Below are positions 1 to 30,290 of a stretch of 64,000 nucleotides of DNA, piece after piece. The position numbers and the translations under genes are program-made. Source of the DNA: Isurus oxyrinchus (Eukaryota); contig JANJGN010000034.1 in NCBI GenBank assembly GCA_026770705.1, positions 17,546,001-17,610,000 on the forward strand, written 5' to 3'. A model generated the notes under the pieces. It was not told the DNA's origin. It saw only the letters and a list, made by a program, of their open reading frames with translations, and ran no database searches. Each line of letters opens with the position of its first letter. Position 1 is the first letter of the stretch.

Positions 1-769
1 TGGTCATGGTGCCAAATCCCCCTCCAATAGACATGGGGAGAATTGAGCACAACACCACCTAGGCGGTGCCACTCCCTCTGGCTTCTCCCTGAGGGACCAT
101 CTTTTTTTTTATGGGATGAGAATCCCAGGTTGCCATTTGCCTTCTCTGGTGGATGTACATGATCCCAAATCTCCAGCACAAGCTGGGTTTAGTTGAAGGC
201 CCTTAATGCCTGAGCTTTAACATTCCCAAAGAAATGAAAGCAGTGAGTTACTGATCAGTGCTCCTTGTAAATCAAGCATCGGAGTGTAACCATGTGAAGC
301 TTGGGATGTAATGTACCAGCAGGGAGGTTATATCTGTGGATAAATACTTTCATTCTTTCCCTGGTGACTTTCCTGTGCCAGTTTCTGGGTTCCTTTGGGA
401 GCAGCTTGTGCTGCCCTGTACCTACAAAGGGAGTGTCCCAGTCTCAGATTTACTGGCAATTTGGGGGACATCTCAGCATGAATTTTTATACAAGTTCATC
501 GCTGGGAATGACGATTTGACAGGACAAGGCCCACGGTTCAGAAACAGAACAAAACTGTTCAAAGATCAACTGGAACAGGGCAGCTGGTTGGTTCTGATCT
601 CTGAACTCAGGAAGTCTGACCAGTACCAGCATCAGTGTCACATTTACAGGAGCACGAGTGTGGGCTATTATTGGGAGCAAACTGATCTCGTTCATCTCTC
701 TGCAAGAGGTGAGAGGTTTCTATTTCAGGTATTCTGTATTTAATCTCTGATTGTATGGGTTCGATACTG

Positions 770-1060
770 CAGTGGTTATGTTACTAGCCTAGAAATACAG
801 AGGCCTGGACTAATAACCAGAGGATGAGAGTTCAAATGCCTCCATGGCACTTTCAGAATTTAAATTCATTTATTAAGTAAAAATCTGCAAATATAAAGTT
901 GGTCCCAATAAAAGTGACCCTGAAGCTGTTGGATTGTTGTAAAACCCCAACTGGTTCACGAATGTCCCTTTAGGGAAGGAAACCTACCGTCCATACCCAG
1001 TCTGGTCTCTGTGACTCCAGTCCCGCAGTAACCTGGGTGACTTTTAACTGACATCTGACT
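770..1060 (+). mobile_element. tRNA-derived SINE-like element in the IgV intron (paralogous copies ~9197-9480 and ~26135-26420)
   Basis: A/B-box-like head (GTGGTTATGTTAC...GAGTTCAAATCCC in B/D); same intron position in all three units. Confidence 0.6.
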
Positions 1061-1179
1061 TGCTCGGCTACATCAATCAGTTTGTATCCAACCATGAGAC
1101 AGAAAATAAGAGACTAAAATTGAACAGATCACTGGTTGTGACCCAAGTATGGAATCAGGAAACAACAAGGACCCACCCA

Positions 1180-1500
1180 GCTCAGTGGACTCTGCAATAT
1201 CCCCTCCCTAAAATCTGGGGACTAGTGTCCATGTTGGGAGAGCTGGATGATATAGTCATACTCACTGATGGAAGGAGTTAACAGTGTTATCAAGCTTCCC
1301 CCCCCCCCCCCCCCCCCCCCCCCCTGCCCCCAGCTGATGAATCAGCACTCCTGCATATTGAATGCCCCTTGGAGGAAGCAGTGAGGGTAGTGAGGACACA
1401 GAATGTACTGAGTGGGGTCTTCAATGTCCTTCACTAAGGGTGGGTCAGTAATACCACCACTGATCAAACAGGCTGATCCCTGAAGGACAGAGCTGTCAAA
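1180..1500 (+). mobile_element. Degraded CR1/L2 LINE endonuclease-region fragment (copies ~9600-10050 and ~26540-26990)
   Basis: CAGCTGATGAATCAGTACTCCTCCATGTTG...GGGGACTTCA (GDF-like) segment resembling shark LINE AP-endonuclease DNA; frame broken. Confidence 0.55.
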
Positions 1501-1658
1501 CTGGGTGATGGAAGGAGTTATTGGAGCTATCAAGCTGCACTCACTCTCAGAAACGTGAATCCTGGGTGGATTCTCTCCACAGGGGGATGTAGGCTGCTGG
1601 GAATGATCCTGCTCAGGATAACTCTGGAAAACTTCCATTATACCCCACCACCCCCCAC

Positions 1659-1660
<2 letters not shown>

Positions 1661-1732
<72 letters not shown>
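1661..1732. repeat. (CA)n microsatellite, about 36 units
   Basis: Read directly; absent at the same position in units B and D. Confidence 0.95.
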
Positions 1733-1735
<3 letters not shown>

Positions 1736-3351
1736 AATGCAATCCTGTTGGATTTTTCACTCTGTTGACCCTGTTACTGATCCTTCCCGATTAGTTTGAT
1801 CCAAATCTCGTTCCTCCCTGGATGTGTTTCCCTATAGCCGGATAGAATCTTTGAACGTTTCTGCAGTTTGTTTCACACACAACACTAAACACATGTTGTT
1901 TTCTTTAGAGCGAGCTCATACACACCTGTAGCAGATAAATCTGTTTCTAAACTACTGCATGTGTTTTCAGCTCTTACTTTTGAACGTGCTGCAGAGACAG
2001 GTAGTAACATTGGAAGGTTTGAAATGCTGTGTGATATTTCACCATAGAATGATTCTGTGAGAGTGAGTGATGTGGGTCACTGTTACCTGTAACTGGTCCT
2101 TAAACTACTTGGAATTGTTATTTCTGTTTTCTGAGTCTCATCTTCCTGTCCCTCAGATACAGAACTGAGGATTCCTAGCATTAGTGTCTCTGGAATTCTG
2201 TGTGGAAAGTCTTGGTACAATTTTAACCCAACCCTCCTATTGGGAAATTCACGGGATTGAGCAACGCTGGTTGAAGTCAGTGGAGAGTAATATTGACCTG
2301 GGTGTAAATCAGTGTTCCACCGAATCCCATGGCTTTCCTGATCCGCAAATTAATTTAAAATTCCCCGCTCTATTTCAGCGGACTGTTGGGTTTAATTGGA
2401 GGGAGGTTGCTGCTGGTCAGTAATCTTGATTGGAAAACATGTATCCATCACATTGTGGGACAGTGTGTGCGTTAACGGAGCTGTGGGGTGGCCCGGTGTG
2501 TGTATGATTATTGGTATCCAACCTCCCACATCCCTCCAAGACTAGAATGAACCAGGGATCTGTTTGTACAGGGGTTGGTTCTGAAACACCTGGTGCTGAA
2601 GGTCTCGGCTGTTAGATTTGTTAGTGAGCCCCAGTCTGTTAATGGCTTCATTCTGTCTCTAGATTCTGGACTCTCGACTGGAGCAAGCGTTGGATTGGGA
2701 ATGGGGATCAGAATTCCTGTTTTTCTTCCTGCTCCACTTATTGGTTTTGTAATCCGAAAGCGACAAAGACGGTGAGTTCTAGATTGTTCCTTTGTTCCCA
2801 TTGTTAATTCTAGTTTTCTTTTATTACATTTAGTGTTGCGGAAATGTTGCATACAGCGATACACTTTGAGCTGTGTGGGATGTTTCAATGCTGCATTATC
2901 CAGTCACTTCCAGCTTGTTGTCATCCTCGAGCTGCTGAACTGACGGTGAAGAGCAGGAATGTGCGGCTCCCTCACACAGTTAATAGACACTTGCCGAATC
3001 TCTGTACCAAACAACTCGCCAGCTGACACTAAAAACGCTAAAATCCCCTTGTTGCCTCTCCTCTGACTTTTCTCCACCCTCTGATCCTTGCTCTGTTCCC
3101 CAGTCACTGACCCCATCCTCTTCCCTGTCCTCTGAAGCTGAACCAGAGCTGAATTTCTGACCCCATATCCTCTCCATCATAAAGACCACCTCCCTCCAGC
3201 TCTGTGACATCCCCTGTCTCTGACCCTGTATCAGCTCATCTGCTGCTCAAACCCTGCACCATGTCATTGTTACCACTCACATTGACTATTCCAATGCTCC
3301 CTGAGCCAGATACCCATCATGTCAACGTCAGCTCATCGAAAACTCTGCCCC

Positions 3352-3480
3352 TTGGCGCCGACCCTCCGACAGCGTGGCGCCCCCTCAGTGCCGACCCTCC
3401 GACAGCGCGGCGCCCCTTTAGGGCCGACCCTCCGACAGCGCAGCGCCCCCTCAGCCTCAGTGCTGACCCTCCGACAACAG
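3352..3480. repeat. Short array of the 33-bp SINE-derived repeat (GACCCTCCGACAGCGCGGCGCCCCCTCAGT...)
   Basis: 3-4 units, same family as 15920-16655. Confidence 0.85.
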
Positions 3481-3759: not shown

Positions 3760-4318
3760 AGTTGAGGTCCGCCCCGGACATGGGAGCTGGAAAGTGGGTC
3801 CTGGGACCGCAACTGGACACTGACGGATCTGCGGTCACATCCTGCAGAGGGAGGGGCGGGTCTGGGAATCAGTGACCAATGGAGATGGAGAATCCGCCCG
3901 TGGCGCAGCAAATATTGTCCAATGAGAGGAGGGGGCAGCGCGGGTCCTGCTCCGTAGATAGAAACAAAGCGCGGAGGCTGGAAATCCAGAACCAAAGCAG
4001 AAATACCTGGAAAAACTCAGCAGGTCTGAGAGGATCTTCGGGGAGGAACAAAGGCGACGCCTCGAGTCCTCAGGACCCTTCACCAGAAATGTTGGGATTT
4101 TCTGTTATTGTTTCGGCTCCTGTCCTGTGTCCAGTGAGGATCAGGAGGGCGGCTCCTGCTCAGTCTAACGGTTTCTTTCGGTTCCTCAAACTACCCCCGA
4201 GAGGAGTCGGTGAGAGCGAGGACCCCCCCCGCACCCCGGGTGAATTTCTATATCACACCCGTAAAATCAACCGGGATCTCCCCCCACTGGACTCTCCCTG
4301 ATCCCGGTGTGGACCCGA
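3760..4318 (+). promoter_or_regulatory. Putative promoter/5'UTR of unit B
   Basis: CpG-rich; GC box ~3854; CCAAT at ~3876 and ~3919; homologous sequence precedes exon 1 in units C and D; interrupted by a short Penelope end fragment (~3960-4090). Confidence 0.6.
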
Positions 4319-4339
4319 ATGGATGGAAAGGAGCTGCGG
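4319..4339 (+). CDS. Unit B exon 1 coding part (MDGKELR)
   Basis: ATG GAT GGA AAG GAG CTG CGG|GTACCG; the phase-0 donor matches the phase-0 leader exon, which has no in-frame ATG; conserved in three units. Confidence 0.65.
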
Positions 4340-4532
4340 GTACCGGCAGGGCCTCAGAGCCGGGAGTGGGGTTGGGGGAGTGGGGGGGCCGTGGGTCCGG
4401 GTGTCGGGGGGACCGGGAATGGGGGGGGGGGGGGTGGTTTGGATGCGGGTGAAATGTGGGGAACAAGGAAACTGAACTGATCCGCGATCCGGGGAAAACA
4501 TTAAAAAATGGAACTGGGATCGGGAGGGAGAA

Positions 4533-6190
4533 ACTCAGCAGGTCTGACAGCGTCAGTGGAGAGGAAAACAGTTAATGTTTGCAGTCCGAATGACTCTTCA
4601 ACAGAGCCAAGGAGAAATAGAAGAGGTGAAATATAAGCTGGTTTAAGGGGTGGGGTGAGACAGGTAGAGCTGGATAGAGGGTCAGTGATAGGTGGAGACA
4701 ACCAAAAGATGTCACAGACAAAAGGACAAAGAGGTGTTGAAGGTGGTGATATTATCTAAGAAATGTGCTATTTAAGGGTAGAAAGCAGGACAAGCAAGGG
4801 ACAGATAGTGGGGTGGGGGTGGGGTGGCATCATCAGAACAGATGCGACGGAGGCGAAGGAACTGAGTCGCATCTGTTCTGATGATATCACTTTCAAAACC
4901 AGTTCCTCTGACGTGTCCTTCTTCTTCCTTAACTGAGGTTTTCCACCCACGGTGGTTGACAGGGCCCTCAGCCGTGTCTGGCCCATCTCCCGCGCATCCA
5001 CCCTCACACCTTCTCCTCCCTCCCAGATACATGATCGGGTCCCCCTTGTCCTCACTTATCATCCCACCAGCCTCCGCATTCAAAGGATCATCCTCCGCCA
5101 TTTCCGCCAACTCCAGCATGATGCCACCACCAAACACATCTTCCCTTCACCCCCCTGGCGGTTTTTCACAGGGATCATTCCCTCCAGGACACCCTGGTCC
5201 AGTCCTCCATCATCCCCTACACCTCAACCCCCTCCCACCGCACCTTCCCATGCAACTGCAGAAGGTGCAACACCTGCCCCTTTACTTCCCCTCTCCTCAC
5301 CGTCCAAGGGCCCAAACACTTCTTTCAAGTGAAGCAGTATTTCACTTGCACTTCCCTCAATATGTCTACTGCATTCGTTGCTCCCAATGCGGTTTCCTCT
5401 ACATTGGAGAGACCAAACGCAGACTGGGTGACCACTTTGCGCAACACCTTCGGTCTGTCCGCAAGCATTAGCCAGACCTCCCTGTCGTTTGCCATTTCAA
5501 CGCTCCACCCTGCTCTCATGCCCACATGTCCGTCCTTGGCCTGCTGCATTGTTTCAGTAAAGCTCAACGCAAACTGGAGGAACAGCACCTCATCTTCCAA
5601 CTGGGCACTTTAGAGCCTTCCGGACTGAATATTGAGTTCAACAGTTTTAGATCATGAACTCTCTCCTGCATCCCCACCCCCTTTTGGATCTCCCCCCCAC
5701 TTTTTTCCCCAATAATTTATATATAGATTTTTCTTTTCCCACCTTTTTCCATTATTTTTATATGTATTTCCATCCATTGTTTTATCTCTACCTTTTAGCC
5801 TTTTTATTGATTCCTTCCCTCCACCCCACCCCCATTGGGCTATCTATACCTTGCTTGTCCTGTTTTCCACCCTTAATGTCACCTATTATCACATTCCTTT
5901 AGATAATATCACCACCTTCAACACTCATTGTCCTTTTGTCTGTGACATCTTTTGGTTATCTCCACCTATCATTGGCCTTCTAACCAGCTCTACCTGTCCC
6001 CCCCCCCCGTCCCCCCCCAAACCACCTTTTTTTCACCGCTCTTCTATTTTTCCTTAGTTCTGTTGAAGAGTCATTCGGACTTGAAACGTTAACTGTTTTC
6101 CTCTCCACAGATGCTGTCAGACCTGCTGACTTTTTTCCAGGTATTTTTGTTTTTGTTTTGGATTTCCAGCACCCGCAGTTTTTTGCATTC
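4533..6190 (+). mobile_element. Penelope-like element, 5'-truncated and frameshifted, with an inverted terminal segment (4533-~4825, - strand)
   Basis: RT C-terminal remnant (RVPLVLTYHPTSLRIQRIILRHF) and GIY-YIG remnant (VYCIRCSQCGFLYIGETKRRLGDHFAQH); inverted copy of the 3' terminal repeat at the left end. Confidence 0.9.
6056..6094 (+). ncRNA. Minimal type I hammerhead-like motif in a Penelope terminus
   Basis: AGTT-CTGTTGA-A-GAGTC attcg GACTT-GAAAC-GTT-AACT. Confidence 0.55.
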
Positions 6191-6354
6191 ATCGGGAGGG
6201 AGAAACCTGTTGAACTCGGACTCAGTCTCAGTGCGGGAGTGGGAGGGGTTTGGATGCGGGTGAAATGTGGGGAGAAAGGAAACTGAACTGATCCGCAATC
6301 TGGGGAAAACATTAAATAACGGAACTAAGATCCGGAGGGATAAACCTGTTGAAT

Positions 6355-7550
6355 TAAAAACAAAAAACTACGGATGCTGGACATCCAAAACAAAAACAGA
6401 AATACCTGGAAAAACTCAGCAGGTCTGGCAGCATCGGCGGACAAGAAAAGAGTTGACGTTTCGAGTCCTCATGACCCTTCAACAGAGCTAAGTAAAAATA
6501 GGAAAGGGGTGAAATATAAGCTGGTTTAAGGTGGGGGGTGTTGGTTGTAAGGACAAGGAAGCAGTGATAGGAGCAGATAATCAAAAGATGTCACAGGCAA
6601 AAGAACAAAGAGGTGTTGAAGGTGGTGATATTATCTAAACGAATGTGCTAATTAAGAATGGATGGCAGGACACAAGGTACAGCTCTAGTGGGGTTGGGGT
6701 GGAATAAGACCAACAGGGCATAAAAGATATAGATTTAAAAATAATGGAAATAGGTGGGAAAAGGAAAATCTATATAAATTATTGGAAAAAAACAAAAGGG
6801 AGGGGGAAGAAACGGAAAGGGGGTGGGGATGGAGGAGGGAGTTCAAGATCTAAAGTTGTTGAATTCAATATTCAGTCCAGAAGGCTGTGAAGTGCCTAGT
6901 CGGAAGATGAGGTGCTGTTCCTCCAGTTTGCTTTGAGCTTCACTGGAACAATGCAGCAAGTCAAGGACAGACATGTGGGCAAGAGAGCAGGGTGGAGTGT
7001 TAAAATGGCAAGCGACAGGGAGGTTTGGGTCATTCTTGTGGACAGACCGCAGGTGTTCTGCAAAGCAGTCACCCAGTTTGAGTTTGGTCTCTCCGATGTA
7101 GAGGAGACCGCATTGGGAGCAATGAATGCAGTAGACTAAGTTGGGGGAAATGCAAGTAAAAGGCTGTTTCATGTGAAGGGAGTATTTGGGTCCTTGGACG
7201 GTGAGGAGAGAGGAAGTGAAGGGGCAGGTGTTGCATCTTTTGCGTGGGCATGGGGAGGTGCCATAGGTGGGGGTTGAGGAGTAGGGAGTGATGGAGGAGT
7301 GGACCATGGTGTCCAAGAGGGAACGATCCCTACGGAATGCCGCCGGTGGGGTGAAAGGAAGATGTGTTTGGTGGTGGCATCATGCTGGAGTAGGCGGAAA
7401 TGGCGGAGGATGATCCTTTGAAAGCGGAGACTGGTGGGGTGATAAGTGAGGACAAGGGGGACCCTATCATGTTTCTGGGAGGGAGGAGAAGGCGTGAAGG
7501 CGGATGCGTAGGAGATGGGCTGGACACAGCTGAGGGTCCTGTCAACGACC
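6355..7550 (-). mobile_element. Penelope-like element, 5'-truncated
   Basis: ORFs 6843-7316 (GIY-YIG) and 7169-7645 (RT C-terminus), frameshifted. Confidence 0.9.
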
Positions 7551-7579
7551 ATGAGTGACCTGTTGAACTTGGATTCAGG

Positions 7580-7740
7580 CTCAGTGCGCATGCTCCTCTC
7601 CGGGGCCCGGCCCCTTTCTCCAGCTCCCGGGCGCATGCCTGGCATCAGTCAATCTTCACCCGGGGGCAGGCCATAAACCCGCGCATGCGCCTACCCCGGC
7701 CCAGTCCCATCATCAACCTGATCAGGAAGTGAACCTGTTG
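7580..7740. promoter_or_regulatory. Intronic CpG patch with three NRF1-type GCGCATGC motifs and an ETS/IRF-like GGAAGTGAAC (copy at ~24510-24665)
   Basis: Motifs read directly and conserved in units B and D; function not shown. Confidence 0.45.
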
Positions 7741-7771
7741 TAAAGGGGGTAACTGTGTTTTCTTGTTGCAG

Positions 7772-7829
7772 GGACACAACTTACAGAAGCTACTCCTGCT
7801 GCTTCTCAATGTTGTTGCTGCTGTTTCAG
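7772..7829 (+). CDS. Unit B exon 2, signal peptide (GHNLQKLLLLLLNVVAAVS)
   Basis: Acceptor ttttcttgttgcAG, donor CAG|GTAAGT, hydrophobic leader, phase 0-1. Confidence 0.85.
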
Positions 7830-8792
7830 GTAAGTGCTGTGACTGCTGGAACATTTCAGCAGTGATCAAAGGGAGGGGGGAATCAGGAATTCATCTTGCT
7901 TTAAGGAGCTGTGTGTACTGCAAGTGGAGCCATTGAGGGAGTGGACACAGTAGGTTCACATCACACATCATGATCCTGAGAACTGAAAGGAAGGCAGTTA
8001 ATGTCTTTAGATTAACCCCTGTGATGTAAACTGTGGGACACTCGGTGACACTGGGATGGGTGACTGGTATCAAGTGGGCTTGGGATGGGGTCCTGAGCAC
8101 TGGGATCAGGAGTCTGGGACATTCCTGGGATCAAATAGAACTGGGAATTGTTTTGGAACTGGGAATTGTTTTGGAGTAGGGACTTCAGGACTGGGGAATT
8201 GGGCTTTGATTCCTGGGAGTGGGCAGAGTCCACCGATATTGGGGGGGAGGACCAAGGTCTGACATGTTAGTGATGGAGGGAGGTAAGGATCCATATTGCC
8301 TCAGCCCCTTTCAGACAATCAGGTTCTGCCTCCCCCTACACGGTGCACTCGTCCGTCACTGTTCCCCAATCTGTGCAAAACCACTTCCACATGCTCTGGT
8401 ACCCCCTCCCCACCCATTCCTGTCTTTACGTTTCAGGGTCAGTTTTATGTTCCTGTGCTCCACCTCACATTGTGCGCCTCCAGCCTGTGATTTTTCTCCC
8501 AAGGGGAGGTGACCAATATCCTGATGTGTTCTCCCAGCATGTGTACAAATGAAAAACATGTGATTCAAAGTGCTGTCCAGCTGCTCTGTGCTTACAAATC
8601 TCCAGCACAAGCTGGTTTTAGTTGAAGGCCCTTAATTCCTGAGCTTCATCCTTTCCACAGAAATGAAAGCAGTGAGTTATTGATCAGTGTTTCTTGTAAA
8701 CTGAGCATCACATTGTAAGCAGGTGAAACATGGGTTGTATTGTACCAGCAGGGAGGTTATATCTTTTGATAAATACTTGCAATCTTTTCCAG

Positions 8793-9137
8793 GTAACTTG
8801 CCTGTCCCAGTTTCTGGGTTCCTTGGGGAGCAGGTTGTGCTGCCCTGTACCTACAAAGTGAATGTCCCAGTCTCTGATTTACTGGTAGTCTGGGAGACAG
8901 CCAACGGTGAAATTTTACAGAAGTTCATCGCTGGGAACGACGATTTGACACAACAAGATCCACGATTCAGAAACAGAACAAACCTGTTCAAAGATCAACT
9001 GGGACAAGGCAACTGGTCAGTTCTGATCTCTGACCTCAGGGAGTCAGACCAGAACCAGTATATATGTGACATTTACAAAAGGATAGCTGTGGGTTATAAA
9101 TGGGAGCAAACTGATATCATCCATCTTTCTGTGACAG
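8793..9137 (+). CDS. Unit B exon 3, B7/butyrophilin-like IgV domain
   Basis: 345-nt phase 1-1 exon; GEQVVLPC, W, QDPRFRNRTNLFKDQLGQGNWSVLI, DQNQYIC match the B7-family V-set signature. Confidence 0.92.
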
Positions 9138-10478
9138 GTGAGAGATGTCTGCTTCAGGTATTCTGTACTTAATCTCTGTATGGGTTCGGTAATTCAGTGG
9201 TTATGTTACTAGACTAGTAATACAGAGGCCTGGACTAATAATCCAGAGGATGAGAGTTCAAATCCCAGCATGGCACTTCCAGAATTTAAAATCAGTTTAT
9301 TAAATAAAAATCTGGAAATATAAAGTTAGTTGCAATAAAAGTGACCCTGAAGCTGTTGGATTGTTGTAAAACCCCAACTGGTTCATGAATGTCCCTTGAG
9401 GGAAGGAAACCTGCTGTCCTTACCCAGTCCCACCGTAAACTGGTTGGTTAAGCTGGCCTAGGAGGTCAGAGGGCAGTTAAAAATGAATTGATATCAAACC
9501 ATTGGAAAGAAAGAATAGAATAAAACTGAATTATCATTGGCTTCACCCCAGGCATCGAATCAGGAAACAACACAGACAAACCCAGGCCAGTTGACATTGG
9601 AAAGTCCCCTCACTAACATCTGGGGACTGGTGTCCAAGTTGGGAGAGCTGTCTGGCAGAGTCATACTGACAGAATTGACCCTGAATCCCAGTCTCCTCTG
9701 TCACCATCCCTGGGTATGTTCTGTCCCATTGGCAGGACAGTCCCACCAGAGATGCAGTATACAGTCCGGAGGGAGTAGTCCTGGGGATCCTCAACATTGA
9801 CTCTGAACCCCATGAAGTCTCACATCTCCAGGTCAAACCTCCTGCTGATTATCACCTACTGCCTCCCTCAGCTGATGAATCAGTACTCCTCCATGTTGAT
9901 CACCCCTTGGAGGAAGCAGTGAGGGTGGCAAGGACACAGAATGTACTGAGTGGGGACTTCACTGTCCCTCACCAAGGGTGGGTCAGTAATACCATCACTG
10001 ATCAAGCTGATGGGGCCCTGAAGGACAGAGCTGTCAAACTGGGTGATGGAAGGATTTAATGGAGCTATCAAGCTGCACTCACTCTCCAGCAAAGAGCTCT
10101 ATCTGTCTCCAGATGTTGGGGTGCAGGAGGTGGGCCCCATCACACCTCTCAGGTTGCCTTTCCAAGACCCAGTGTACTTATTTTGATAGTGTATCCCAGT
10201 AGACCCAGGATCCTGTGGGGATTCTCTCCACAGGGGGATGTAGGCTGCTGGGACTGATCCTGCTCAGGGTAACTCTGGAAATCTTCCATTCTACCCACCA
10301 CAGTTAATGCAATCCTGTTGGATTTTTCACTCTGCCGACCCTGTTCCTGATCCTTCCCGATCAGTTTGATCCGAGTCTCGTTCCTTCCTGGATGTGTTTC
10401 CCTAAAGCCCAATAGAGTCACTGAACATTTCTGCAGTTTGTTTCACACACAGTGCTAAACACATGTTGTTTTCTTTAG

Positions 10479-10517
10479 AGCGACCTCAAACACCTGTACC
10501 GACCATGCCTGTACCAG
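10479..10517 (+). CDS. Unit B exon 4, Pro/Thr stalk (ERPQTPVPTMPVP)
   Basis: 39 nt, ttttctttAG acceptor, CAG|GTAAAT donor, phase 1-1. Confidence 0.75.
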
Positions 10518-11248
10518 GTAAATCTGTTTCTAAACTACTCCATGTATTTTCAGCTCTTACTTTTGAACATGCTGCAGAGACAGGGAGTAACATTGGAAGG
10601 TTTGAAATGCTGTGTGATATTTCACCATAGAATGATTCTGTGAGAGTGAGTGGTGTGGGTCACTGTTACCTGTAACTGGCCCTGAAACTACCTGGAATTG
10701 TTATTTCTGTTTGAGTCTCACCTTCCTGTCTCTCAGATGCAAAACTGTGAGGATTCCTGCTTCCCACTAGCAGTCTGGAATTCTGTGTGGAAAGTCTTGG
10801 TACAATTATAACCGAACCCTCCTGTTGGGAAAATGACGGGATTGGGTGTAACACTGATTGAAGTCAGTGATGAGTAATATTGAGCTAGGTGTAAATCTGT
10901 ACTATGCCCAGGCCCGCGGTTTTCCTGATCCGCAAATTAGTTTAAAATTCCTGCTCTATTTCAGCGGACTGTTGGGTTTAATTGGAGGGAGTTTGCTGCT
11001 GGTCAGTGTCCAGTTATCTCGATTGGAAAGCATGTATCCATCACATTGTGGGACAGTGTGTGTGTGCAAAGAGCTGTGGGGTGGCCTGGTGTGTATGTGA
11101 TTATTGGTATCTAACCTTCCTCCAGGACTAGAATTAATCAGAGATCTGTTTGTACTGGGGTTGGTTGTGAAACACTAGGTGCTGAAGGTCTCTGCTGTTA
11201 GTTTTGTTAGTGTGTCCCAGTCTGTTAATGTCTTCAATCTGTCCATAG

Positions 11249-11348
11249 ATTCTGGGCTCTCGACTGGAGCAAGAGTGGGATTGGGAATTGGAATTCTTGT
11301 TTTTCTTGCTGCAGTTATTGGTTTTGTCATCCGAAAGTGGCAAAGACG
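11249..11348 (+). CDS. Unit B exon 5, transmembrane (DSGLSTGARVGLGIGILVFLAAVIGFVIRKWQR)
   Basis: 100 nt, AG acceptor and GTGAGT donor; hydrophobic helix followed by a basic stop-transfer segment. Confidence 0.88.
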
Positions 11349-12798: not shown

Positions 12799-12952
12799 CA
12801 ATCGACACTTGAATAATCGAAATGAAGCATCTAAGGATGTCCCTTGGACAGGGGTGAGCTGTCCAGGTGAAGCACGGGGCCTTGTGACAACAGCACCTGA
12901 GCATCAGGATGGAGAAGAAAACCTTGTGGGGAACAGGACTGTCCAGCACTGA
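12799..12952 (+). CDS. Unit B exon 6, cytoplasmic tail to stop (NRHLNNRNEASKDVP...NRTVQH*)
   Basis: Strong acceptor gtttttctctcctAG; phase 2 fits the TM exon; total CDS 717 nt = 238 aa. Confidence 0.72.
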
Positions 12953-17170: not shown

Positions 17171-19032
17171 AACAAAAACAGAATTACCTGGAAAAACTCA
17201 GTAGGTCTGGCAGCATCGGCGGAGGAGAAAAGAGTTGACGTTTCGAGTCCTCATGACCCTTCGACAGAACTTGATTTCGAGTCCAGGAAAGAGTTGAAAT
17301 ATAAGCTGGTTTAAGGTGTGTGGGGGGGGGGGGGGAAGGAGAGAGAGAGAGAGACAGAGGTGCTTGTGTAGACAAACAAGCAGTGATAGAAGCAGATCAT
17401 CAAAAGATGTCAGTAACAATGGTACAAAAGAACACATAGGTGTTAAAGTTAAAGTTGGTGATATTATCTAAACGAATGTGCTAATTAAGAATGGATGGTA
17501 GGGCACTCAAGGTACAGCTCTAGTGGGGGTGGGGGGAGCATAAAGGATTTTAAAATATTTAAAAATAATGGAAATAGGTGGGAAAAGAAAAATCTATAAA
17601 ATTTATAGGGGAAAAAAGGGGGAAACAGAAAGGGGGTGGGGATGGGGGAGGGAGCTCACGACCTAAAGTTATTGAATTCAATATTCAGACCGGAAGGCTG
17701 TAAGGTGCCTAGTCGGAAGATGAGGTGTTGTTCCTCCAGTTTGCGTTGGGCTTCACTGGAACAATGCAGTAAGCCAAGGACAGACATGTGGGCAAGAGAG
17801 CAGGGTGGAGTGTTAAAATGGCAAGCCACAGGGAGGTTTGGGTCATTCTTGCGGACAGACCGCAGGTGTTCTGCAAAGCGGTCGCCCAGTTTACGTTTGG
17901 TCTCTCCAATGTAGAGGAGACCACATTGGGAGCAACGAATGCAGTAGACTAAGTTGGGGGAAATGCAAGTGAAATGCTGCTTCACTTGAAAGGAATGTTT
18001 GGGCCCTTGGACGGTGAGGAGAGAGGAAGTGAAGGGGCAGGTGTTACATCTTTTGCGTGGGCATGGGGTGGTGCCATAGGAGGGGGTTGAGGAGTAGGGG
18101 GTGATGGAGGAGTGGACCAGGGTGTCCCGGAGGGAGCGATCTCTACGGAATGCCGATAAGGGGGGTGAAGGGAAGATGTGTTTGGTGGTGGCATCATGCT
18201 GGAGTTGGCGGAAATGGCGGAGGATGATCCTTTGAATGCGGAGGCTGGTGGGGTGATAAGTGAGGACAAGGGGGACCCTATCATGTTTCTGGGAGGGAGG
18301 AGAAGGCGTGAGGGCGGATGCGCGGGAGATGGGCCGGACACGGTTGAGGGCCCTGTCAACGACCGTGGGTGGAAAACCTCGGTTAAGGAAGAAGGAGGAC
18401 ATGTCAGAGGAACCGTTTTTGAAGGTAGCATCATCGGAACAGATGCGACGAAGGCGAAGGAACTGGGAGAATGGGATGGAGTCCTTACAGGAAGCGGGGT
18501 GTGAGGAGCTGTAGTCGAGGTAGCTGTGGGAGTCGGTGGGTTTGTAGTGGATATTGGTGGACAGTCTATCACCAGAGATTGAGACAGAGAGGTCAAGGAA
18601 GGGAAGGGAAGTGTCAGAGATGGACCACGTGAAAATGATGGAGGGGTGGAGATTGGAAGCAAAATTAATAAATTTTTCCAAGTCCCGACGAGAGCATGAA
18701 GCAGCACCGAAGTAATCATCGATGTACCGGAGAAAAAGTTGTGGAAGGGGGCCGGGGTAGGACTGCAACAAGGAATGTTCCACATATCCCATAAAGAGAC
18801 AGGCATAGCTGGGGCCCATGCGGGTACCCATAGCCACACCTTTTATTTGGAGGAAGTGAGAGGAGTTGAAGGAGAAATTGTTCAGCGTGAGAACAAGTTC
18901 AGCCAGACGGAGGAGAGTAGTGGTGGATGGGGATTGTTCGGGCCTCTGTTCGAGGAAGAAGCTAAGGGCCCTCAGACCATCCTGGTGGGGGATGGAGGTG
19001 TAGAGGGATTGGACGTCCATGGTGAAGAGGAA
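17171..19032 (-). mobile_element. Young Penelope-like element, 5'-truncated, with an uninterrupted 454-codon RT + GIY-YIG frame (17656-19020)
   Basis: DVQSLYTSIPH, GVAMGTRMGPSYA, RYIDD, FLDL, VYCIRC..C..LYIGET..L..RF.EH; possible duplicated target CCCTGCTCTGT at 17160-17170 and 19038-19048. Confidence 0.95.
17233..17271 (-). ncRNA. Minimal type I hammerhead-like motif
   Basis: - strand AGTT-CTGTCGA-A-GGGTC atgag GACTC-GAAAC-GTC-AACT. Confidence 0.6.
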
Positions 19033-19039
19033 ACTGCCC

Positions 19040-19435
19040 CTGCTCTGTGTCCAATGAGAGGATGAGGGAGGAGGACGAGTGCGGTTTGTGATTTTCTGTC
19101 TGACGGGTCCGTTATCTGCATCGGAGCGGAGTCGGCGAGAGCGAGGAGTCGCCGAGTTAATTTCTATATCACACCCGTAAAATCAACCGGGATCTCCCCC
19201 CACTGGACTCTCCCTGATCCCGGTGTGGACCCGAATGGATGGAAAGGAGCTGCAGGTACCGGCAGGGCCTCAGAGCCGGGAGTGGTGGGGGTGGCGGGAC
19301 CGTGGGTCCGGGTGTCGGGGGGACAGTGGGTCCGGGTGTCGGGGGGACCGGGAATGGGGGGGGTTTGGATGCGGGTGAAATGTGGGGAAAAAGGAAACTG
19401 AACTGATCCGCGATCCGGGGAAAACATTAAAAAAA
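19040..19435 (+). pseudogene. Unit C relic: promoter, exon 1 (19235-19255, MDGKELQ) and start of intron 1 only
   Basis: Near-identical to 4240-4510 and 23055-23295, then joins directly to sequence homologous to 32059 onward. Confidence 0.8.
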
Positions 19436-21280: not shown

Positions 21281-21284
21281 GAGC

Positions 21285-21584
21285 CTTTCCACCAACTTTA
21301 ACTTTAACACCTATGTGTTCTATTGTACCATTGTCATTGACATCTTTTGATGATCTGCTTCTATCACTGCTTGTTTGTCCCTACAACCACACACCCCCCA
21401 CCTCTCTCTCTCTCTATCTCTCCGCCCCCCACACACACACATTAAACCATCTTACATTTCAACTCTTTCTTGGACTTGAACTCAAGTTCTGTCGAAGGGT
21501 CATGAGGGCTCGAAACGTCAACTCTTTTCTTCTCCGCCGATGCTGCCAGACCTGCTGAGTTTTTCCAAGTAATTCTGTTTTTGC
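21285..21584 (+). mobile_element. Penelope terminal-repeat fragment with a hammerhead-like motif at 21485-21523
   Basis: Reverse-complement match to 17171-17460. Confidence 0.85.
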
Positions 21585-22460
21585 CAGCTTAAAGTAACCT
21601 GGTGTGGAGCAACACTGATGCATTGTGAGCACCCTATCTACTTAGGAGTCACCCTTCACCGATGCCTCACCTGCAAGAACCACATCGAAAAGACAAACGC
21701 AAAAGTGAGCGCACGAAACAACATCCTCAATAAGCTCACTAACATAAAATGGGGAGCAAGCCCGAAAACATCGCGAACCAGTGCACTTGCTGTTTGCTAT
21801 TCCACTGCCGAATACACCTGCCCTGTGTGGGAAAGATCTACTCACACTAAGAAGATGGATGCCGTTCTGAATACAAGCTGCCGACTTATCACAGGTTGTT
21901 TAAAACCAACAAACACCAGCATCGTATATATCCTGGCGGTAATCGCTTCCCCTGATATAAGAAGAACGGTAGCCAGCAAGAAAGAACAACTCCATCAAAC
22001 ATCAAATGAGAGTCACCCGCTACATGGTCATACACGTAAACCCAGCTGCCTAAAGTCAAGGAAGAGCTTCATGAACCTTACAAACAACCCCATCTGAAGC
22101 CCGCATCGCCTTGTGGAAAGACCGGCTCGCCAGTCTCGAACAATCCCCAGGGATGGAAATTCTACCAGATGAAATCATTCCCCCAGGAGCTAATTGCAAC
22201 TGGGCAACCTGGAAGTCCCTTAACAGACTTAGGGCTGGTGTAGGTCATTCAGAGGTCACTAAGCAAATGGGGATATACAACCAGCCCGACAACTTGTGAA
22301 TGTGGAACTGAGTCACAGACTATGCAACATCTCCTGCAATGCCTATCGCTATAGGAACCCTGCACTGTTGCAGATGTTGCCGAATTCAACAACAAGGCAC
22401 AAAAACATGTCCAGTTCTGGCTGGGCCATGTATAGACTGTCCGTGGACACGATAAGAAGA
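21585..22460 (+). mobile_element. Ingi/Vingi-like LINE fragment (duplicate of ~14930-15824)
   Basis: ORFs 21618-22097 and 22111-22299; same 3' junction. Confidence 0.75.
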
Positions 22461-23133: not shown

Positions 23134-23154
23134 ATGGATGGAAAGGAGCTGCAG
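23134..23154 (+). CDS. Unit D exon 1 coding part (MDGKELQ)
   Basis: ATG...CAG|GTACCG; CCAAT (~22957) and GC box (~22972) upstream. Confidence 0.65.
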
Positions 23155-23314
23155 GTACCGGCAGAGCCTCAGAGTGGGGGGACCGTGGGTCCGGGTGTCG
23201 GGGGGACCGGGAATGGGGGGGTTTGGATGCGGGTGAAATGTGGGGAAAAAGGAAACTGAACTGATCCGCGATCCGGGGAAAACATTAAAAAATGGAACTG
23301 GGATCGGGAGGGAG

Positions 23315-24480
23315 AAACTCAGCAGGTCTGACAGCGTCTGTGGAGAGGAAAACAGTTAATGTTTCCAGTCCGAATGAGTCTTCAACAGAGCGATGGAGAA
23401 ATAGAAGAGGTGAAATATAAGCTGGTTTAAGGCGGGGGGGTGGTGGGTGGTGGAGGCGAGAGCAGTGTGGGGGAGGGGGTTGGTGGTGTTGGTTGTAGGG
23501 ACAAGCAGGCAGTGATCGGATCAGATAATCAAAAGATGTCACAGGCAAAAGAAAAAAGAGGTGTTAAAGGTGGTGATATTATCTAAATGAATGTGCTAAT
23601 TAATAATGGATGGCAGGACACACAAGGTACAGCTCTAGTGGGGTTGGGGTGGAATAAGACCAACAGGGCATTAAAGGTATAGATTTAAAAATAATGGAAA
23701 TAGGTGGGAAAAGGAAAATCTATGTAAATTATTGGAAAAAACAGAAAGGGGGTGGGGATGGAGGTGGGAGTTCAAGATCTAAAGTTGTTGAATTCAATAT
23801 TCAGTCCGGAAGGCTGTAAAGTGCCTAGTCGGAAGATGAGGTGTTTTTCCTCCAGATTGCATTGAGCTTCACTGGAACAATGCAGCAGATCAAGGACAGA
23901 CATGTGGGCAAGAGAGCAGGGTGGAGTGTTAAAATGGCAAGCGACAGGGAGGTTTGGGTCATTCTTGTGGACAGACCGCAGGTGTTCTGCAAAGCAGTCA
24001 CCCAGTTTGCGTCTGGTCTCTCCGATGTAGAGGAGACCGCATTGGGAGCAACGAATGCAGTAGACTAAGTTGGGGGAAATGCAAGTAAAAGGCTGTTTCA
24101 TGTGAAAGGAGTATTTGGGTCCTTGGACGGTGAGGAGAGAGGAAGTGAAGGGGCAGGTGGTGCATCTTTTGCGTGGGCATGGGGAGGTGCCATAGGTGGG
24201 GGTTGAGGAGTAGGGAGTGATGGAGGAGTGGACCAGGGTGTCCCGGAGGGAACGATCCCTACGGAATACCGCCAGTGGGGTGAAGGGAAGATGCGTTTGG
24301 TGGTGGCATCATGCTGGAGTTGGCGGAAATGGCGGAGGATGATCCTTTGAAAGCGGAGACGGGTGGGGTGATAAGTGAGGACAAGGGGGACCCTATCATG
24401 TTTCTGGGAGGGAGGAGAAGGCGTGAAGGCGGATGCGTAGGAGATGGGCTGGACACAGCTGAGGGCCCTGTCAACGACCG
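23315..24480 (-). mobile_element. Penelope-like element in unit D intron 1
   Basis: ORFs 23772-24101 and 24098-24574; body and junction shared with 6355-7550. Confidence 0.9.
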
Positions 24481-24700
24481 TGAGTGACCTGTTGAAATGG
24501 GATTCAGCCTCAGTGCGCATGCTCCTCTCCGGGGCCCGGCCCCTTTCTCCAGCTCCCGGGCGCATGCGCGGCACCAGTCAATCTTCACCCGGGGGCAGGC
24601 CATAAACCCGCGCATGCGCCTACCCCGGCCCAGTCCCATTATCAACCTGATCAGGAAGTGAACTTGTTGTAAAGGGGGTAACTGTGTTTTCTTGTTGCAG

Positions 24701-24758
24701 GGACACAACTTACAGAAGCTGCTCCTGCTGCTTCTCAATGTTATTGCTGCTGTTTCAG
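24701..24758 (+). CDS. Unit D exon 2, signal peptide (GHNLQKLLLLLLNVIAAVS)
   Basis: Canonical AG and GTAAGT splice sites. Confidence 0.85.
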
Positions 24759-25730: not shown

Positions 25731-26075
25731 GTAACTTGCCTGTCCCAGTTTCTGGGTTCCTTGGGGAGCAGGTTGTGCTGCCCTGTACCTACAAAGTGAA
25801 TGTCCCAGTCTCTGATTTACTGGTAGTCTGGGAGACAGCCAAGGGTGAAATTTTACAGAAGTTCATCGCTGAGAACGAGGATTTGACAGAACAAGATCCA
25901 CGATTCAGAAACAGAACAAACCTGTTCAAAGATCAACTGGGACAAGGCAACTGGTCAGTTCTGATCTCTGACCTCAGGGAGTCAGACCAGAACCAGTATA
26001 TATGTGACATTTACAAGAGGATAGCTGTGGGTTATGACTCGGAGCAAACTGATATCATCCATCTTTCTGTGACAG
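25731..26075 (+). CDS. Unit D exon 3, B7/butyrophilin-like IgV domain
   Basis: 345 nt, phase 1-1; Cys/Trp/Cys core intact; 8 nt differences from unit B. Confidence 0.92.
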
Positions 26076-27417: not shown

Positions 27418-27456
27418 AGCGACCTCAAACACCTGTACCGACCACGCCTGTACCAG
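27418..27456 (+). CDS. Unit D exon 4, Pro/Thr stalk (ERPQTPVPTTPVP)
   Basis: 39 nt, canonical splice sites. Confidence 0.75.
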
Positions 27457-28187
27457 GTAAATCTGTTTCTAAACTACTCCATGTATTTTCAGCTCTTACA
27501 TTTGAACATGCTGCAGAGACAGGGAGTAACATTGGAAGGTTTGAAATGCTGTGTGATATTTCACCATAGAATGATTCTGTGAGAGTGAGTGGTGTGGGTC
27601 ACTGTTACCTGTAACTGCCCCTGAAACTACCTGGAATTGTTATTTGTGTTTGAATCTCACCTTCCTGTCTCTCAGATACAAAACTCTGAGGATTCCTGCT
27701 TCCCACTAGCAGTCTGGAATTCTGTGTGGAAAGTGTTGGTACAATTATAACCGAACCCTCCTGTTGGGAAAATGACGGGATTGGGTGTAACACTGATTGA
27801 AGTCAGTGGAGAGTAATATTGACCTAGGTGTAAATCTGTACTATGCCCAGGCCCGTGGTTTTCCTGATCCACAAATTAGTTTAAAATTCCTGCTCTATTG
27901 CAGCGGACTGTTGGGTTTAATTGGAGGGAGTTTGCTGCTGGTCAGTGTCCAGTTATCTCGATTGGAAAGCATGTATCCATCACATTGTGGGACAGTGTGT
28001 GTGTGCAAAGAGCTGTGGGGTGGCCTGGTGTGTATGTGATTATTGGTATCTAACCTTCCTCCAGGACTAGAATTAATCAGAGATCTGTTTGTACTGGGGT
28101 TGGTTGTGAAACACTAGGTGCTGAAGGTCTCTGCTGTTAGTTTTGTTAGTGTGTCCCAGTCTGTTAATGTCTTCAATCTGTCCATAG

Positions 28188-28287
28188 AATCTGGGCTCTC
28201 GACTGGAGCAAGAGTGGGATTGGGAATTGGAATTCTCGTTTTTCTTGCTGCAGTTATTGGTTTTGTCATCCGAAAGTGGCAAAGACG
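28188..28287 (+). CDS. Unit D exon 5, transmembrane
   Basis: 100 nt; VGLGIGILVFLAAVIGFVI followed by RKWQR. Confidence 0.88.
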
Positions 28288-29736
28288 GTGAGTTCTAGAA
28301 TGTTCCACGGCTCCCATTGTTAATTCCAATTTAGTTTTATTACATTTAGTGTTGCGGAAATGTTGTGTACAGTGATACACTTTGAGCTGTGTGGGATGTT
28401 TCAATGCTGCATTATCCAGTCACTTCCAGCTTGTAATCATCCTCTAGCTGCTGAACTGACGATGAGCAGGAATGTGCGGCTCCCTCTATCACACAGTTAA
28501 TAGACACTCGCCGAATCTCTGTACCAAAGAACTCACCAGCCGACATCCAAAGTCCCCTTGTTGCCTCTCCTCTGGTTTTTCTCCACCCTCTGATCCTTGC
28601 TCTGTTCCCCAGTCACTGACTCCATCCCCCTCTGTCAGCTTCAGCTCATCGAAAACTCTGCTGCCCCACATCCTAACTTACCCCAAGTCCTGTTCACCCT
28701 CACACCCTCTGCTCACTCACCTACATTCATCCCCCTGTTCAAACTCCCCGATGGCCTCAGCACCCCCCTACCCCTTTTAACTCCTCCTGGGCCGACAGCC
28801 TTTGAGATGCCTGTGCTCATCTATCTGGCCTCTTGACCATCCCCTGATTTCCATCACTCCATCATTGGCGGCCGTGACGTCAGCTGCCTCGGCCCTAAGC
28901 TCTGGAATTCCCTCCCTAAACCTCTCTTTTTCAGGCACTCTTTAAAACCTACCACCTTTTGATCAAGACTTTGGTCACCTGTCCTAATATCTCCTTATGT
29001 GGCTCACACTTTCCCCTGTTAGGCACCTTTGGACAATAAGGATGCTATATAAATGCAAGTTGTTGCTCAATCTCAGCACCCTGTGACCCGGCCATCTGTG
29101 GTTTCCATCACTGGGACAGCCATCTTGGATTTCCTTGTCTCCTTCAACATCCCTATCTCCCTGCCCACCTCTCGCCCACCCACCGGTGGGGAGGGGAAAT
29201 TATTACAGACACTCTAACCCTGTCCGCTGACTCTCCATCACGATATTTCTGTGTTTGTTGACCTGTTTGGTCACTGCTGGATTGGGCTTGAGCACATCAA
29301 GGAATATCCTGTCCATCTGTGGCTCCTCTCAATCCTTCAGGATCAGTCTGGAGAGTCCGGAGACTCCCAACCTCCTCGTGTCTAATCTGATCCCCATCAT
29401 CTTCAGCTCAGTGTTAACTGAGATCCTCATCAATTCTTCTTCATCTCCAATATTGAGGCGAGCTGGCATTTTTCTATTTGTCTGGTTCCTCAGTCAGCAC
29501 AGCTCCTGTGGAGTGTCCAGCTCTTGCCCATTGCCTCCCCTATGAGCCTCCTCTCCTCTACGCTCTGTGCTCCATCACCGTGCAACTCCTGTGACCCATT
29601 TTCCAGCTGCTATTGGTACCCAGGATGTTGAGTGTAATTTTATTGGTCTGTGCTCCTGAACGGCTCCTTTACACACTTGTCCAAAGTGTTGGATTCTTGT
29701 AATGTCACCTGAACTCTGCTGGTTTTTCTCTCCTAG

Positions 29737-29890
29737 CAATCGACACTTGAATAATCGAAATGAAGCATCTAAGGATGTCCCTTTGACAGGGGTGAGCTGT
29801 CCAGGTGAAGCACGGGGCCTTGTGACAACAGCACCTGAGCATCAGGATGGAGAAGAAAACCTTGTGGGGAACAGGACTGTCCAGCACTGA
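29737..29890 (+). CDS. Unit D exon 6, cytoplasmic tail to stop
   Basis: Same acceptor and frame as unit B; followed by an AT-rich 3'UTR. Confidence 0.72.
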
Positions 29891-30284
29891 CTGAGTTTCC
29901 CCTGCACTGAGCCTGTGTCAGGGTGGGGAAAATCAGCCCAGAATGGATGATTGTTACGTATGCACGTATAACCCTCTGCACTGTGGAGGCTCCCCCCCCT
30001 CATCGCCACCGCTGCCCTGCGGGGCCCAGCAGAGACTATGGGATATATCATAATTGTATTGAAGCACTTCAGAGTGTTAACATGATGTATGGCGATAACA
30101 TGAATAGCTTTGCACTGTCTGACTCTCTGTAATGACCATATTGAAATGTCTGTAATATCGATTCTATTGAAACACCTCATGACCTGTGTGGAAAACTGGA
30201 ATATGATTGCATTTTTTGTGATGACCATTTTGAAATGTCTTTTATAATGTTCTTTCAAATATTTTATGAAGTTATATTGTTCCA

Positions 30285-30290
30285 AATAAA
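30285..30290 (+). terminator. Putative polyadenylation signal of unit D
   Basis: AATAAA about 400 nt after the stop, with T/GT-rich sequence downstream. Confidence 0.55.

What the first reader, a model, noticed from the sequence alone, without database searches (positions are those of the whole stretch)
364..30290. Birth-and-death cluster of a single-IgV B7/BTN-like receptor with no IgC, no B30.2 and no tail tyrosines
Seen: six phase-compatible exons (21+58+345+39+100+154 nt) give a 238-aa type I protein in units B and D, next to one decayed unit and one exon-1-only unit. Known: B7 members are usually V+C, butyrophilins usually add B30.2, and V-only relatives (MOG, chicken BG) have different tails. 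Inference: a lineage-specific, rapidly turning-over immune surface family of cartilaginous fish with a mucin-like mini-stalk, a Gly-rich TM (GARVG/GLGIG, GxxxG type) and a 50-aa Tyr-free tail. It may act as a ligand, decoy or dimerising co-receptor.
Basis: partly seen in the sequence, partly recalled or inferred. Interest (0 to 1): 0.72.

Follow-up and report, generated by a model that had tools for sequence, protein, structure and literature searches.

The report
Shark immune-type receptors with swappable heads
These are real, spliced genes of a fast-turning-over shark family of B7-like cell-surface proteins whose likely partner-binding face varies from copy to copy, and whose shared stalk, membrane anchor and tail can also carry a second, unusual antibody-like head; they likely act as surface ligands read by immune cells.

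Summary
The six-exon, 238-aa model in units B and D is exact, and all five junctions appear as spliced joints in RNA-like contigs of three studies. No IgC or B30.2 lies in the spliced product. The family has 19 V exons and 14 tail exons in three places on contig C34, away from MHC class I (C21). Its named relatives come only from sharks (10 genera). It is not the orthologue of CD276, VTCN1 or BTN/MOG, which this genome holds elsewhere. Variation sits on the GFCC' face, the ABED face is nearly invariant, and a site model finds positive selection there, confounded by segmental exchange. Correction: 'decayed' unit A is a transcribed gene that skips its dead V exon and uses a different, degenerate Ig head encoded just upstream of the window; other sharks have such genes intact. 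Best reading: a B7-type surface ligand family. No partner, tissue or function was shown.

The parts
364..708 (+). Unit A: dead IgV exon (acceptor CTG), skipped in transcripts; a diverged V lineage also present in basking shark models
   Evidence: stalk-to-TM joint skips it; P0005, P0006
1909..1934 (+). Unit A: stalk exon remnant with AT donor, skipped
1971..2000 (+). Unit A: second 30-nt stalk exon candidate with GT donor (GG in B and D); skipped in the listed joint
2663..2771 (+). Unit A: membrane exon, spliced to the X-head gene whose signal, X and stalk exons lie upstream of the window (C34:17542120-183, 17542308-574, 17545853-921); helix weakened (Arg, two Pro; hydropathy 1.73 vs 2.83)
4120..4520 (+). 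Unit B: CpG-rich patch around exon 1, likely promoter
   Evidence: CpG o/e 0.64 vs 0.20 in the gene body; promoter role inferred
4319..4339 (+). Unit B exon 1 (ATG, 7 codons)
7560..7760 (+). Unit B: CpG-rich patch with three GCGCATGC and one CAGGAAGTG motif just before the signal exon, likely second promoter
   Evidence: (contigs cover 7468-7796); motif names NRF1/ETS are recalled
7772..7829 (+). Unit B exon 2, signal peptide
8793..9137 (+). Unit B exon 3, B7-type IgV with two N-glycan sequons
10479..10517 (+). Unit B exon 4, Pro/Thr-rich stalk
11249..11348 (+). Unit B exon 5, membrane helix with GxxxG and basic stop-transfer residues
12403..12519 (+). Unit B: optional in-frame 117-nt tail exon candidate
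   Evidence: P0022; skipped
12799..12952 (+). Unit B exon 6, conserved tail and stop
19235..19255 (+). Unit C: lone exon 1 in a CpG-rich patch
23134..23154 (+). Unit D exon 1
24701..24758 (+). Unit D exon 2, signal peptide
25731..26075 (+). Unit D exon 3, IgV
27418..27456 (+). Unit D exon 4, stalk
28188..28287 (+). Unit D exon 5, membrane helix
29341..29457 (+). Unit D: optional tail exon candidate with GC donor
29737..29890 (+). Unit D exon 6, tail and stop
30285..30290 (+). AATAAA, candidate polyadenylation signal of unit D
   Evidence: use not shown

Best explanation
Units B and D are spliced members of a shark multigene family of type I membrane proteins with a B7-type IgV head and no IgC, which likely work as surface ligands: the variable GFCC' face would bind a receptor on another cell, probably a lymphocyte, while the near-invariant ABED face and the GxxxG helix would pair the proteins side by side in their own membrane. 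Shown: exon structure, splicing, fold, where the variation lies, copy turnover, and that the same signal, stalk, membrane and tail exons also carry a second, degenerate Ig head (X) or two V heads. Inferred: ligand role, dimerisation, immune cell type, and that the conserved tyrosine-poor tail serves sorting or scaffolding rather than ITIM/ITAM signalling. The symmetric phase 1-1 head and stalk exons explain how heads are gained, doubled, swapped or skipped.
For: Fold and sequence are nearest to B7 ligands: PD-L1, MOG, B7-H4, BTN. Over 65 shark V domains, outward positions of the C, C', F, G strands average 1.97 bits against 0.46 on the B, D, E strands (p 6e-5). On 10 intact V exons of this genome M2a beats M1a (p 0.007, omega 3.6 on 25% of sites) and 10 of 11 high-posterior sites lie on that face. 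B7 and BTN ligands bind their receptors with this face (PMC2193977 abstract; PMC6868513 passages), and CD80 uses ABED for its homodimer and GFCC'C'' for CTLA-4 (PMC7618755 passages). GxxxG in 58 of 61, charged helix residue in 3 of 61, shared tail motif in 41 of 61. Three conventional V+C B7-like genes lie between the clusters at C34:16.39-16.51 Mb, a possible local source. Sharks have a diverse CD28 family that could supply receptors (PMC11599192 passages).
Against: No partner, tissue or cell type was identified. With a free substitution rate for the face, omega falls to 1.5 and is not above 1 (p 0.22), pairwise pN is about equal to pS on the face (0.36 vs 0.34), and a unit 1.7 Mb away is a mosaic against unit B, so exchange between copies can mimic selection. 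The rest of the V exon shows only weak purifying selection within this genome (omega 0.6-0.8), and 9 of 19 V exons are broken or have a dead splice site. The sister group is unresolved (local B7 gene 54/12; CD276 and BTN as sister not rejected, p-AU 0.056 and 0.052). A second promoter-like patch with housekeeping-type motifs fits broad rather than immune-restricted expression. Fast change on a ligand face is more typical of pathogen pressure than of a fixed host receptor (own knowledge).
Confidence: 0.45

Rival explanations
1. Pathogen-driven family: a microbe or virus binds the GFCC' face, and copies diversify, exchange segments and lose heads to escape binding or to act as non-signalling decoys, as CEACAM N-domains do in primates.
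For: Selection signal and mosaicism on one exposed face; copy turnover and head swapping; no ITIM or ITAM and few charged helices. CEACAM N-domains show rapid evolution and gene conversion tied to bacterial adhesins (PMC8860441 abstract and passages).
Against: No paired activating and inhibitory members were found among 61 homologues, which CEACAM-type systems usually have (PMC5112662, search listing only). No pathogen ligand is known. This reading can hold together with the best explanation.
Confidence: 0.27
2. Homophilic or family-internal adhesion or self marker: paralogues (or V and X heads) bind each other across cells through the variable face, like nectins, SLAM/CD2 or MPZ-type proteins.
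For: The contig carries a nectin-like cluster; the X head is an Ig fold without the B-F disulphide, a trait of CD2/SLAM and CEACAM N domains (trait recalled); likely broad expression.
Against: The V head is B7-like, not nectin- or MPZ-like. In whale shark P0054 X and V sit on one chain, which suits stacked domains better than a ligand pair.
Confidence: 0.13
3. Largely neutral expansion in a repeat-rich region: one or two needed genes plus redundant copies; the patchy divergence comes from conversion tracts that homogenise the framework, not from selection on a binding face.
For: omega near 1 when rates are free; silent changes are also somewhat higher in the variable blocks; half of the V exons are broken; four near-identical copies (2-3%) at 17.49-17.58 Mb, some of which could be assembly duplicates.
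Against: Replacement differences in the variable blocks (50-63% of codons between deep lineages) exceed the framework (13-18%; p 1e-4 to 8e-7 in 5 of 6 pairs) while silent differences do not differ significantly in any pair, and flanking introns differ by only 6-24%; the same face varies in ten shark genera while tail and back face are kept.
Confidence: 0.15

Closest known systems
B7 family ligands (CD276/B7-H3, VTCN1/B7-H4, PD-L1, CD80, ICOSLG)
   Same: IgV of B7 type, type I topology, short tail without ITIM, variable front face and conserved back face that match the receptor and dimer faces of CD80 (PMC7618755).
   Different: No IgC; multicopy with birth and death; not the orthologue of CD276 (C28 exon scores 126 bits on one domain, ours 29) or VTCN1 (C18 exon 85, ours 52); heads are exchangeable.
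Butyrophilins and BTNL
   Same: Related IgV; CFG face is the receptor-binding face (PMC6868513).
   Different: No IgC, heptads or B30.2; not on the MHC class I contig, where this genome's BTN/MOG-like V exons lie.
Chicken BG genes
   Same: Single V plus membrane helix, tandem array with copy-number change (PMC8813856 passages).
   Different: BG has long heptad tails and selection for diversity in the tail (PMC8813856); here the tail is short and conserved and the diversity is in the V face. BG is MHC-linked.
MOG
   Same: Single IgV of the BTN/B7 group; many database models of this family are auto-named 'MOG-like'.
   Different: MOG scores 38 bits against our V but 116 against the C21 exon; single-copy, with a second hydrophobic segment (recalled).
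CEACAM N-domain system (analogy)
   Same: Rapid change and segmental exchange of a membrane-distal V domain in a tandem family (PMC8860441).
   Different: Different V lineage; no ITIM/ITAM pairs found here.
Bird V-only 'VTCN1-like' proteins and ray-finned fish tandem-V 'BTN/CD276/MOG-like' proteins
   Same: V-only B7-like architecture; nearest non-shark hits.
   Different: At most 69 bits per domain (fish, V profile) or 83-90 bits (birds, full profile); separate branches in the tree; they lack the shark tail motif by inspection.

Membership tests
B7/BTN superfamily (V domain) | IgV with B-F disulphide, C-strand Trp and best matches among B7/BTN/MOG | tested here: met
Canonical B7 ligands | IgV followed by a C2-type IgC | tested here: not met
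   V-stalk-TM joints; C-domain profile finds at most 3 bits in 364 kb of the three clusters, against 35-78 bits for control C exons not in the profile
Canonical B7 ligands | Orthology with a named member (CD276, VTCN1, ICOSLG, CD80/86, PD-L1, HHLA2) | tested here: inconclusive
   CD276 and VTCN1 have better matches elsewhere in the genome; own clade 99/97 but sister unresolved; human sequences were not in the tree; ICOSLG, CD80/86, HHLA2 not assigned
Canonical B7 ligands | Binding to a CD28-family or NK receptor | not testable with these tools
   needs binding assays
Butyrophilins | IgC, juxtamembrane heptads and B30.2 | tested here: not met
   TM exon splices straight to a 50-aa last exon with no Pfam match
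Butyrophilins / BG / MOG | Linkage to the MHC | tested here: not met
   MHC class I on C21 (31 of 33 matches; 2 on C16), family on C34
Chicken BG | Long heptad-repeat tail | tested here: not met
   56-aa tail from one exon
Paired immune receptors (CEACAM, CD300, SIRP type) | Inhibitory members with ITIM and activating members with ITAM or charged helix | tested here: not met
   61 homologues: 3 with a charged helix residue, 3 with a YxxPhi string (two at the helix end, one in an atypical C-terminus)
Ig superfamily (X head) | Ig-like beta sandwich | tested here: met
   AlphaFold pLDDT 78-86 in most of the domain from 8 sequences; VIA-align Z 6.5-8.0, rmsd 2.1-3.2 over 69-87 residues, rows dominated by Ig domains; titin Ig E 1e-4 and V-set E 0.056 for the catshark variant. 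Foldseek gave no match at E 0.001
CD2/SLAM or CEACAM N domain (X head) | Specific kinship beyond the shared fold | tested here: inconclusive
   CD48, 2B4, CEACAM1, CD300 and many others tie within 1 Z unit; Atlas leads under or near 0.9

The most novel reading that the evidence does not exclude
Sharks built a modular surface-receptor system on a non-MHC chromosome in which one signal-stalk-membrane-tail chassis carries exchangeable heads (one V, two V, an undescribed disulphide-rewired Ig head X, X+V, or none), and the diversified V faces are germline-coded ligands for shark T-cell or CD28-family receptors, a BTN-like self-sensing system without B30.2; X heads could be the partners of the V heads.
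Probability: 0.2. Interest if true: 0.8.

Novelty: new variant of a known kind. Interest (0 to 1): 0.52.

Why it matters
Databases scatter these genes under at least eight unrelated names (CD276-, MOG-, ICOSL-, VTCN1-, CD86-, BTN-, JAML-, SCN4B-, MXRA8-like), which hides one shark-wide family and confuses B7 orthology in the oldest jawed vertebrates with adaptive immunity. The family gives a testable case of a B7-type ligand face under diversifying pressure with a constant tail, the reverse of chicken BG, and a clear example of head swapping by symmetric exons that produced an Ig domain without a named family. Finding the partner would show what drives B7/BTN expansions.

Tried and rejected
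Complex prediction of a V-V homodimer was not available, so dimerisation is untested. No listed run is on record as RNA and none names a tissue; depth of contigs was not used to rank expression. IQ-TREE codon models did not move omega from 1.0 and were replaced by own codon models, which use a fixed DNA tree and ignore recombination. The first tree had a long-branch outgroup inside the family; it was rebuilt without four long rows and with fewer family and fish rows. Markers to name the chromosome's human counterpart failed: nicastrin no match, ERCC1 on an unplaced contig, no Kir channel on C34. PRDM7/9-like sequence fused to a basking shark model (P0021) was not found in the 30-40 kb flanks examined. 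Rejected: Arg before the helix as an activating-receptor charge (not conserved); canonical dileucine or TRAF motifs in the tail (spacing does not fit the recalled consensus); 'fully processed retrocopy' for the C13 copy (it keeps the intron-1 end). The joint from unit A's membrane exon to a signal-type exon could be back-splicing or read-through into unit B; not resolved. Absence from rays and chimaeras is not shown: the word-based searches and 50% clustering can hide diverged members. Literature: nine searches, of which some aimed at shark B7-like families, listed no paper on this family; term look-ups in PMC12841164, PMC12227049, PMC6795676, PMC10751288, PMC7677710, PMC11599192 and PMC12151841 showed none in the passages seen. 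The B7 evolution paper PMC3709836 is not held, other subscription papers are not searched, and no supplements were opened; gene lists there (for example of PMC12841164, PMC7677710, PMC11599192) may include members.
Full report
1. Observation. The window holds four related units on the + strand. Units B and D align over 6.7 kb at 96%. A script located six exons of 21, 58, 345, 39, 100 and 154 nt in each, all with AG/GT ends, joining to 238 aa with 14 codon differences, 11 of them replacements. The product has a signal peptide, an IgV (Pfam V-set E 8e-9) with two N-glycan sequons, a 19-residue stalk of which 10 are Ser, Thr or Pro, one membrane helix and a 56-aa tail without Tyr. Contigs of four public runs (three studies; RNA is the tool's guess) laid on 4100-13400 at 90% likeness show skipped stretches of exactly the five intron lengths, in 3, 4, 3, 4 and 3 of 4 runs. 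The V exon joins the stalk, the stalk joins the membrane exon, and that joins the last exon, so no IgC or B30.2 exon is in these forms. Paralogues may contribute to these joints. An extra in-frame 117-nt exon candidate before the last exon is skipped in the listed joints but occurs in one database model.

2. Extent in the genome. The window is G000:C34:17546001-17610000. Close V exons lie at three places on C34: 7.6 Mb, 15.71-15.90 Mb and 17.49-17.58 Mb; mapping on 364 kb of fetched DNA gives 19 V exons and one fragment, of which 10 have an AG acceptor, an open frame and both cysteines. A DNA search finds 14 tail exons, all on C34 (lower bound). Several units carry a second V exon with a dead CTG acceptor. 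Four units at 17.49-17.58 Mb differ by only 1-6% in 250-nt bins, and the unit at 15.89 Mb is a mosaic against unit B: 2-3% around V, 12-15% around the membrane exon, 0-2% towards the tail. This is birth and death with segmental exchange. A profile of this genome's own C domains finds nothing in the clusters (best 3 bits; controls 35-78).

3. Range. A search with the V exon returned 54 proteins of 150 candidates, all named from sharks; a profile search returned 82, of which 74 are named from sharks of ten genera, one is unnamed, five are bird V-only 'VTCN1-like' proteins and two are catfish proteins. None is named from a ray or chimaera, which does not prove absence. White shark and basking shark proteins are closest (up to 90%), so the source is likely a lamniform shark (inference). 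In the representative search the next domains score at most 69 bits against more than 115 for whole family domains; the 13 non-family hits looked up are from ray-finned fish. Database names are inconsistent.

4. Kinship. Sequence and fold are nearest to CD276, VTCN1, PD-L1, MOG and BTN, all at about 25-30% identity. The genome holds better matches to CD276 on C28, to MOG/BTN on C21 and to VTCN1 on C18. In a 27-row tree the family is one clade (99/97) with an unresolved sister; the best tree joins it to a V+C gene at C34:16.39 Mb with support 54/12, and CD276 or BTN as sister are not rejected (p-AU 0.056, 0.052). MHC class I is on C21. C34 carries three V+C B7-like genes at 16.39-16.51 Mb, between the clusters, and nectin-like genes at 13.07-13.73 Mb. 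Origin from a local B7 gene by loss of C is plausible, not shown.

5. Where the variation lies. Across 65 V domains cut from the 54 homologues, entropy is high at outward positions of C, C', F and G and the CC' and FG loops, and low on B, D and E: 1.97 against 0.46 bits for 14 and 10 outward positions (p 6e-5). Faces were assigned from the model's strands and residue alternation, not from coordinates, and after the alignment had been seen. Between deep lineages in this genome 50-63% of codons in the C-C' and F-G blocks change the residue against 13-18% elsewhere; silent differences are higher in the blocks but not significantly in any pair. A partition model gives omega 3.3 for the face and 0.6 for the rest with a shared rate (p 1e-6), but 1.5 (p 0.22) when the face has its own rate, which fits better (p 0.013). 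A site model gives p 0.007, omega 3.6, with 10 of 11 selected sites on the face. Selection is likely; exchange between copies weakens the test. PD-L1/PD-L2 (PMC2193977, abstract), BTNL3 and BTN3A (PMC6868513, passages) bind receptors with this face; CD80 uses ABED for its homodimer and the opposite face for CTLA-4 (PMC7618755, passages). Chicken BG shows the reverse pattern, with selected diversity in the tail (PMC8813856, passages).

6. Membrane and tail. Of 61 homologues with a clear helix, 58 have GxxxG at or just before its start, 3 a charged residue in it, 10 a Tyr in the tail, none a convincing ITIM, and 41 share the motif HQDG...EQNLL. GxxxG is common in such helices, so it is only a hint of dimers. 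There is no sign of activating and inhibitory pairs.

7. Unit A and the X head. Profile hits that match only stalk, helix and tail (P0115, P0116, P0138, later P0221, P0222) carry another domain of about 90 residues, and whale shark P0054 carries it in front of a V. The same exon lies 3.4 kb upstream of the window, between a signal exon and its own stalk exon, in frame with unit A's membrane exon. Contigs show signal-to-X (1 of 4 runs), X-to-stalk (3 of 4) and stalk-to-membrane joints (3 of 4; two studies), the last skipping the dead V exon; one contig matches A's membrane exon without a difference. So unit A is a transcribed X-head gene. It looks to be decaying here: no tail exon, a weakened helix, a Cys-to-Arg change in the assembly that one run does not share, and a 2-nt deletion in X in the second organism. 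Its membrane exon joins a signal-type exon, by back-splicing or read-through. X has no Pfam match over threshold, keeps 4-6 cysteines in non-canonical places and lacks the B-F pair and the C-strand Trp. The model from 8 sequences is a small beta sandwich that aligns to Ig domains at Z 6.5-8.0, with no Foldseek match at E 0.001; no specific family can be named. Further X exons lie at C34:17.01 Mb (open, with stalk) and 9.76 Mb (with a stop, near tail remnants), and a copy on C13 has the signal exon joined exactly to X. All head and stalk exons are phase 1-1, which allows doubling, swapping and skipping; headless database isoforms exist.

8. Mechanism. Most likely a surface ligand that presents a variable front face to a receptor on another cell and pairs in cis through its constant back face and helix (0.45). 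Rivals: pathogen escape or decoy as in CEACAMs (PMC8860441, abstract and passages; 0.27), neutral expansion with patchy conversion (0.15), adhesion within the family (0.13). Structure, splicing, turnover and head swapping are shown; every functional step is inferred. The complex predictor was not available.

9. Novelty. The V-only B7/BTN design and its tandem expansion have precedents (BG, MOG, fish and bird V-only proteins), and the genes exist as automatic models. I found no paper on the family in the searches listed under Tried and rejected, with the stated gaps. The diversified front face on a constant tail and the exchangeable X head make it a new variant of a known kind. Interest 0.52.

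Noticed in passing
window 34758-52906: An 18-kb purine-rich satellite of 20/40/60-nt period (GC up to 0.75) separates the cluster from the next genes.
   Followed up: no
window 55386-55712 (-): First coding exon of a class A GPCR (Pfam 7tm_1 E 3e-11); adenosine-receptor-like by recalled resemblance.
   Followed up: partly
window 53209-53599 and 59160-59760: A 67-nt tandem repeat with CGGCCATCTT motifs and a CpG-rich patch with a 55-nt repeat and GCGCATGCGC motifs, both promoter-like; genes not identified.
   Followed up: no
window 54103-54202: 100-N assembly gap.
   Followed up: no
window 4866-7557, 14929-15825, 17171-19030, 21582-22450, 23311-24486, 31158-31811: Retroelement fragments inside intron 1 and between units; they dominate contig depth. 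Class not tested.
   Followed up: no
G000:C34:16.39, 16.46, 16.50 Mb (L042, L092, L041/L083): Three tandem V+C B7-like genes; two have near-identical C exons under very different V exons, another sign of head exchange or conversion.
   Followed up: partly
G000:C34:13.07-13.73 Mb (L089-L091): Cluster of at least four nectin-like C2 exons and three V exons.
   Followed up: partly
G000:C13:21824915-21825071 (L081): Semi-processed copy: signal exon joined exactly to X, upstream intron end kept, which fits a transcript starting just before the signal exon.
   Followed up: partly
L051:446, 556, 589, 594: One run differs from the assembly at four C-to-T positions in the X exon, another run of the same sample at one; likely alleles, editing not tested.
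   Followed up: no
G000:C21:3.5, 15.9, 35.6 Mb and 107.5-113.9 Mb: Further multicopy B7-like V+C genes and a BTN/MOG-like cluster near MHC class I.
   Followed up: partly
protein P0021: Basking shark model fuses a family member to a PRDM7/9-like gene, suggesting they are neighbours there; not found in the flanks examined here.
   Followed up: partly
proteins P0225-P0229: Bird V-only 'VTCN1-like' proteins of 155-168 aa ending in a hydrophobic C-terminus, possibly GPI-anchored.
   Followed up: no
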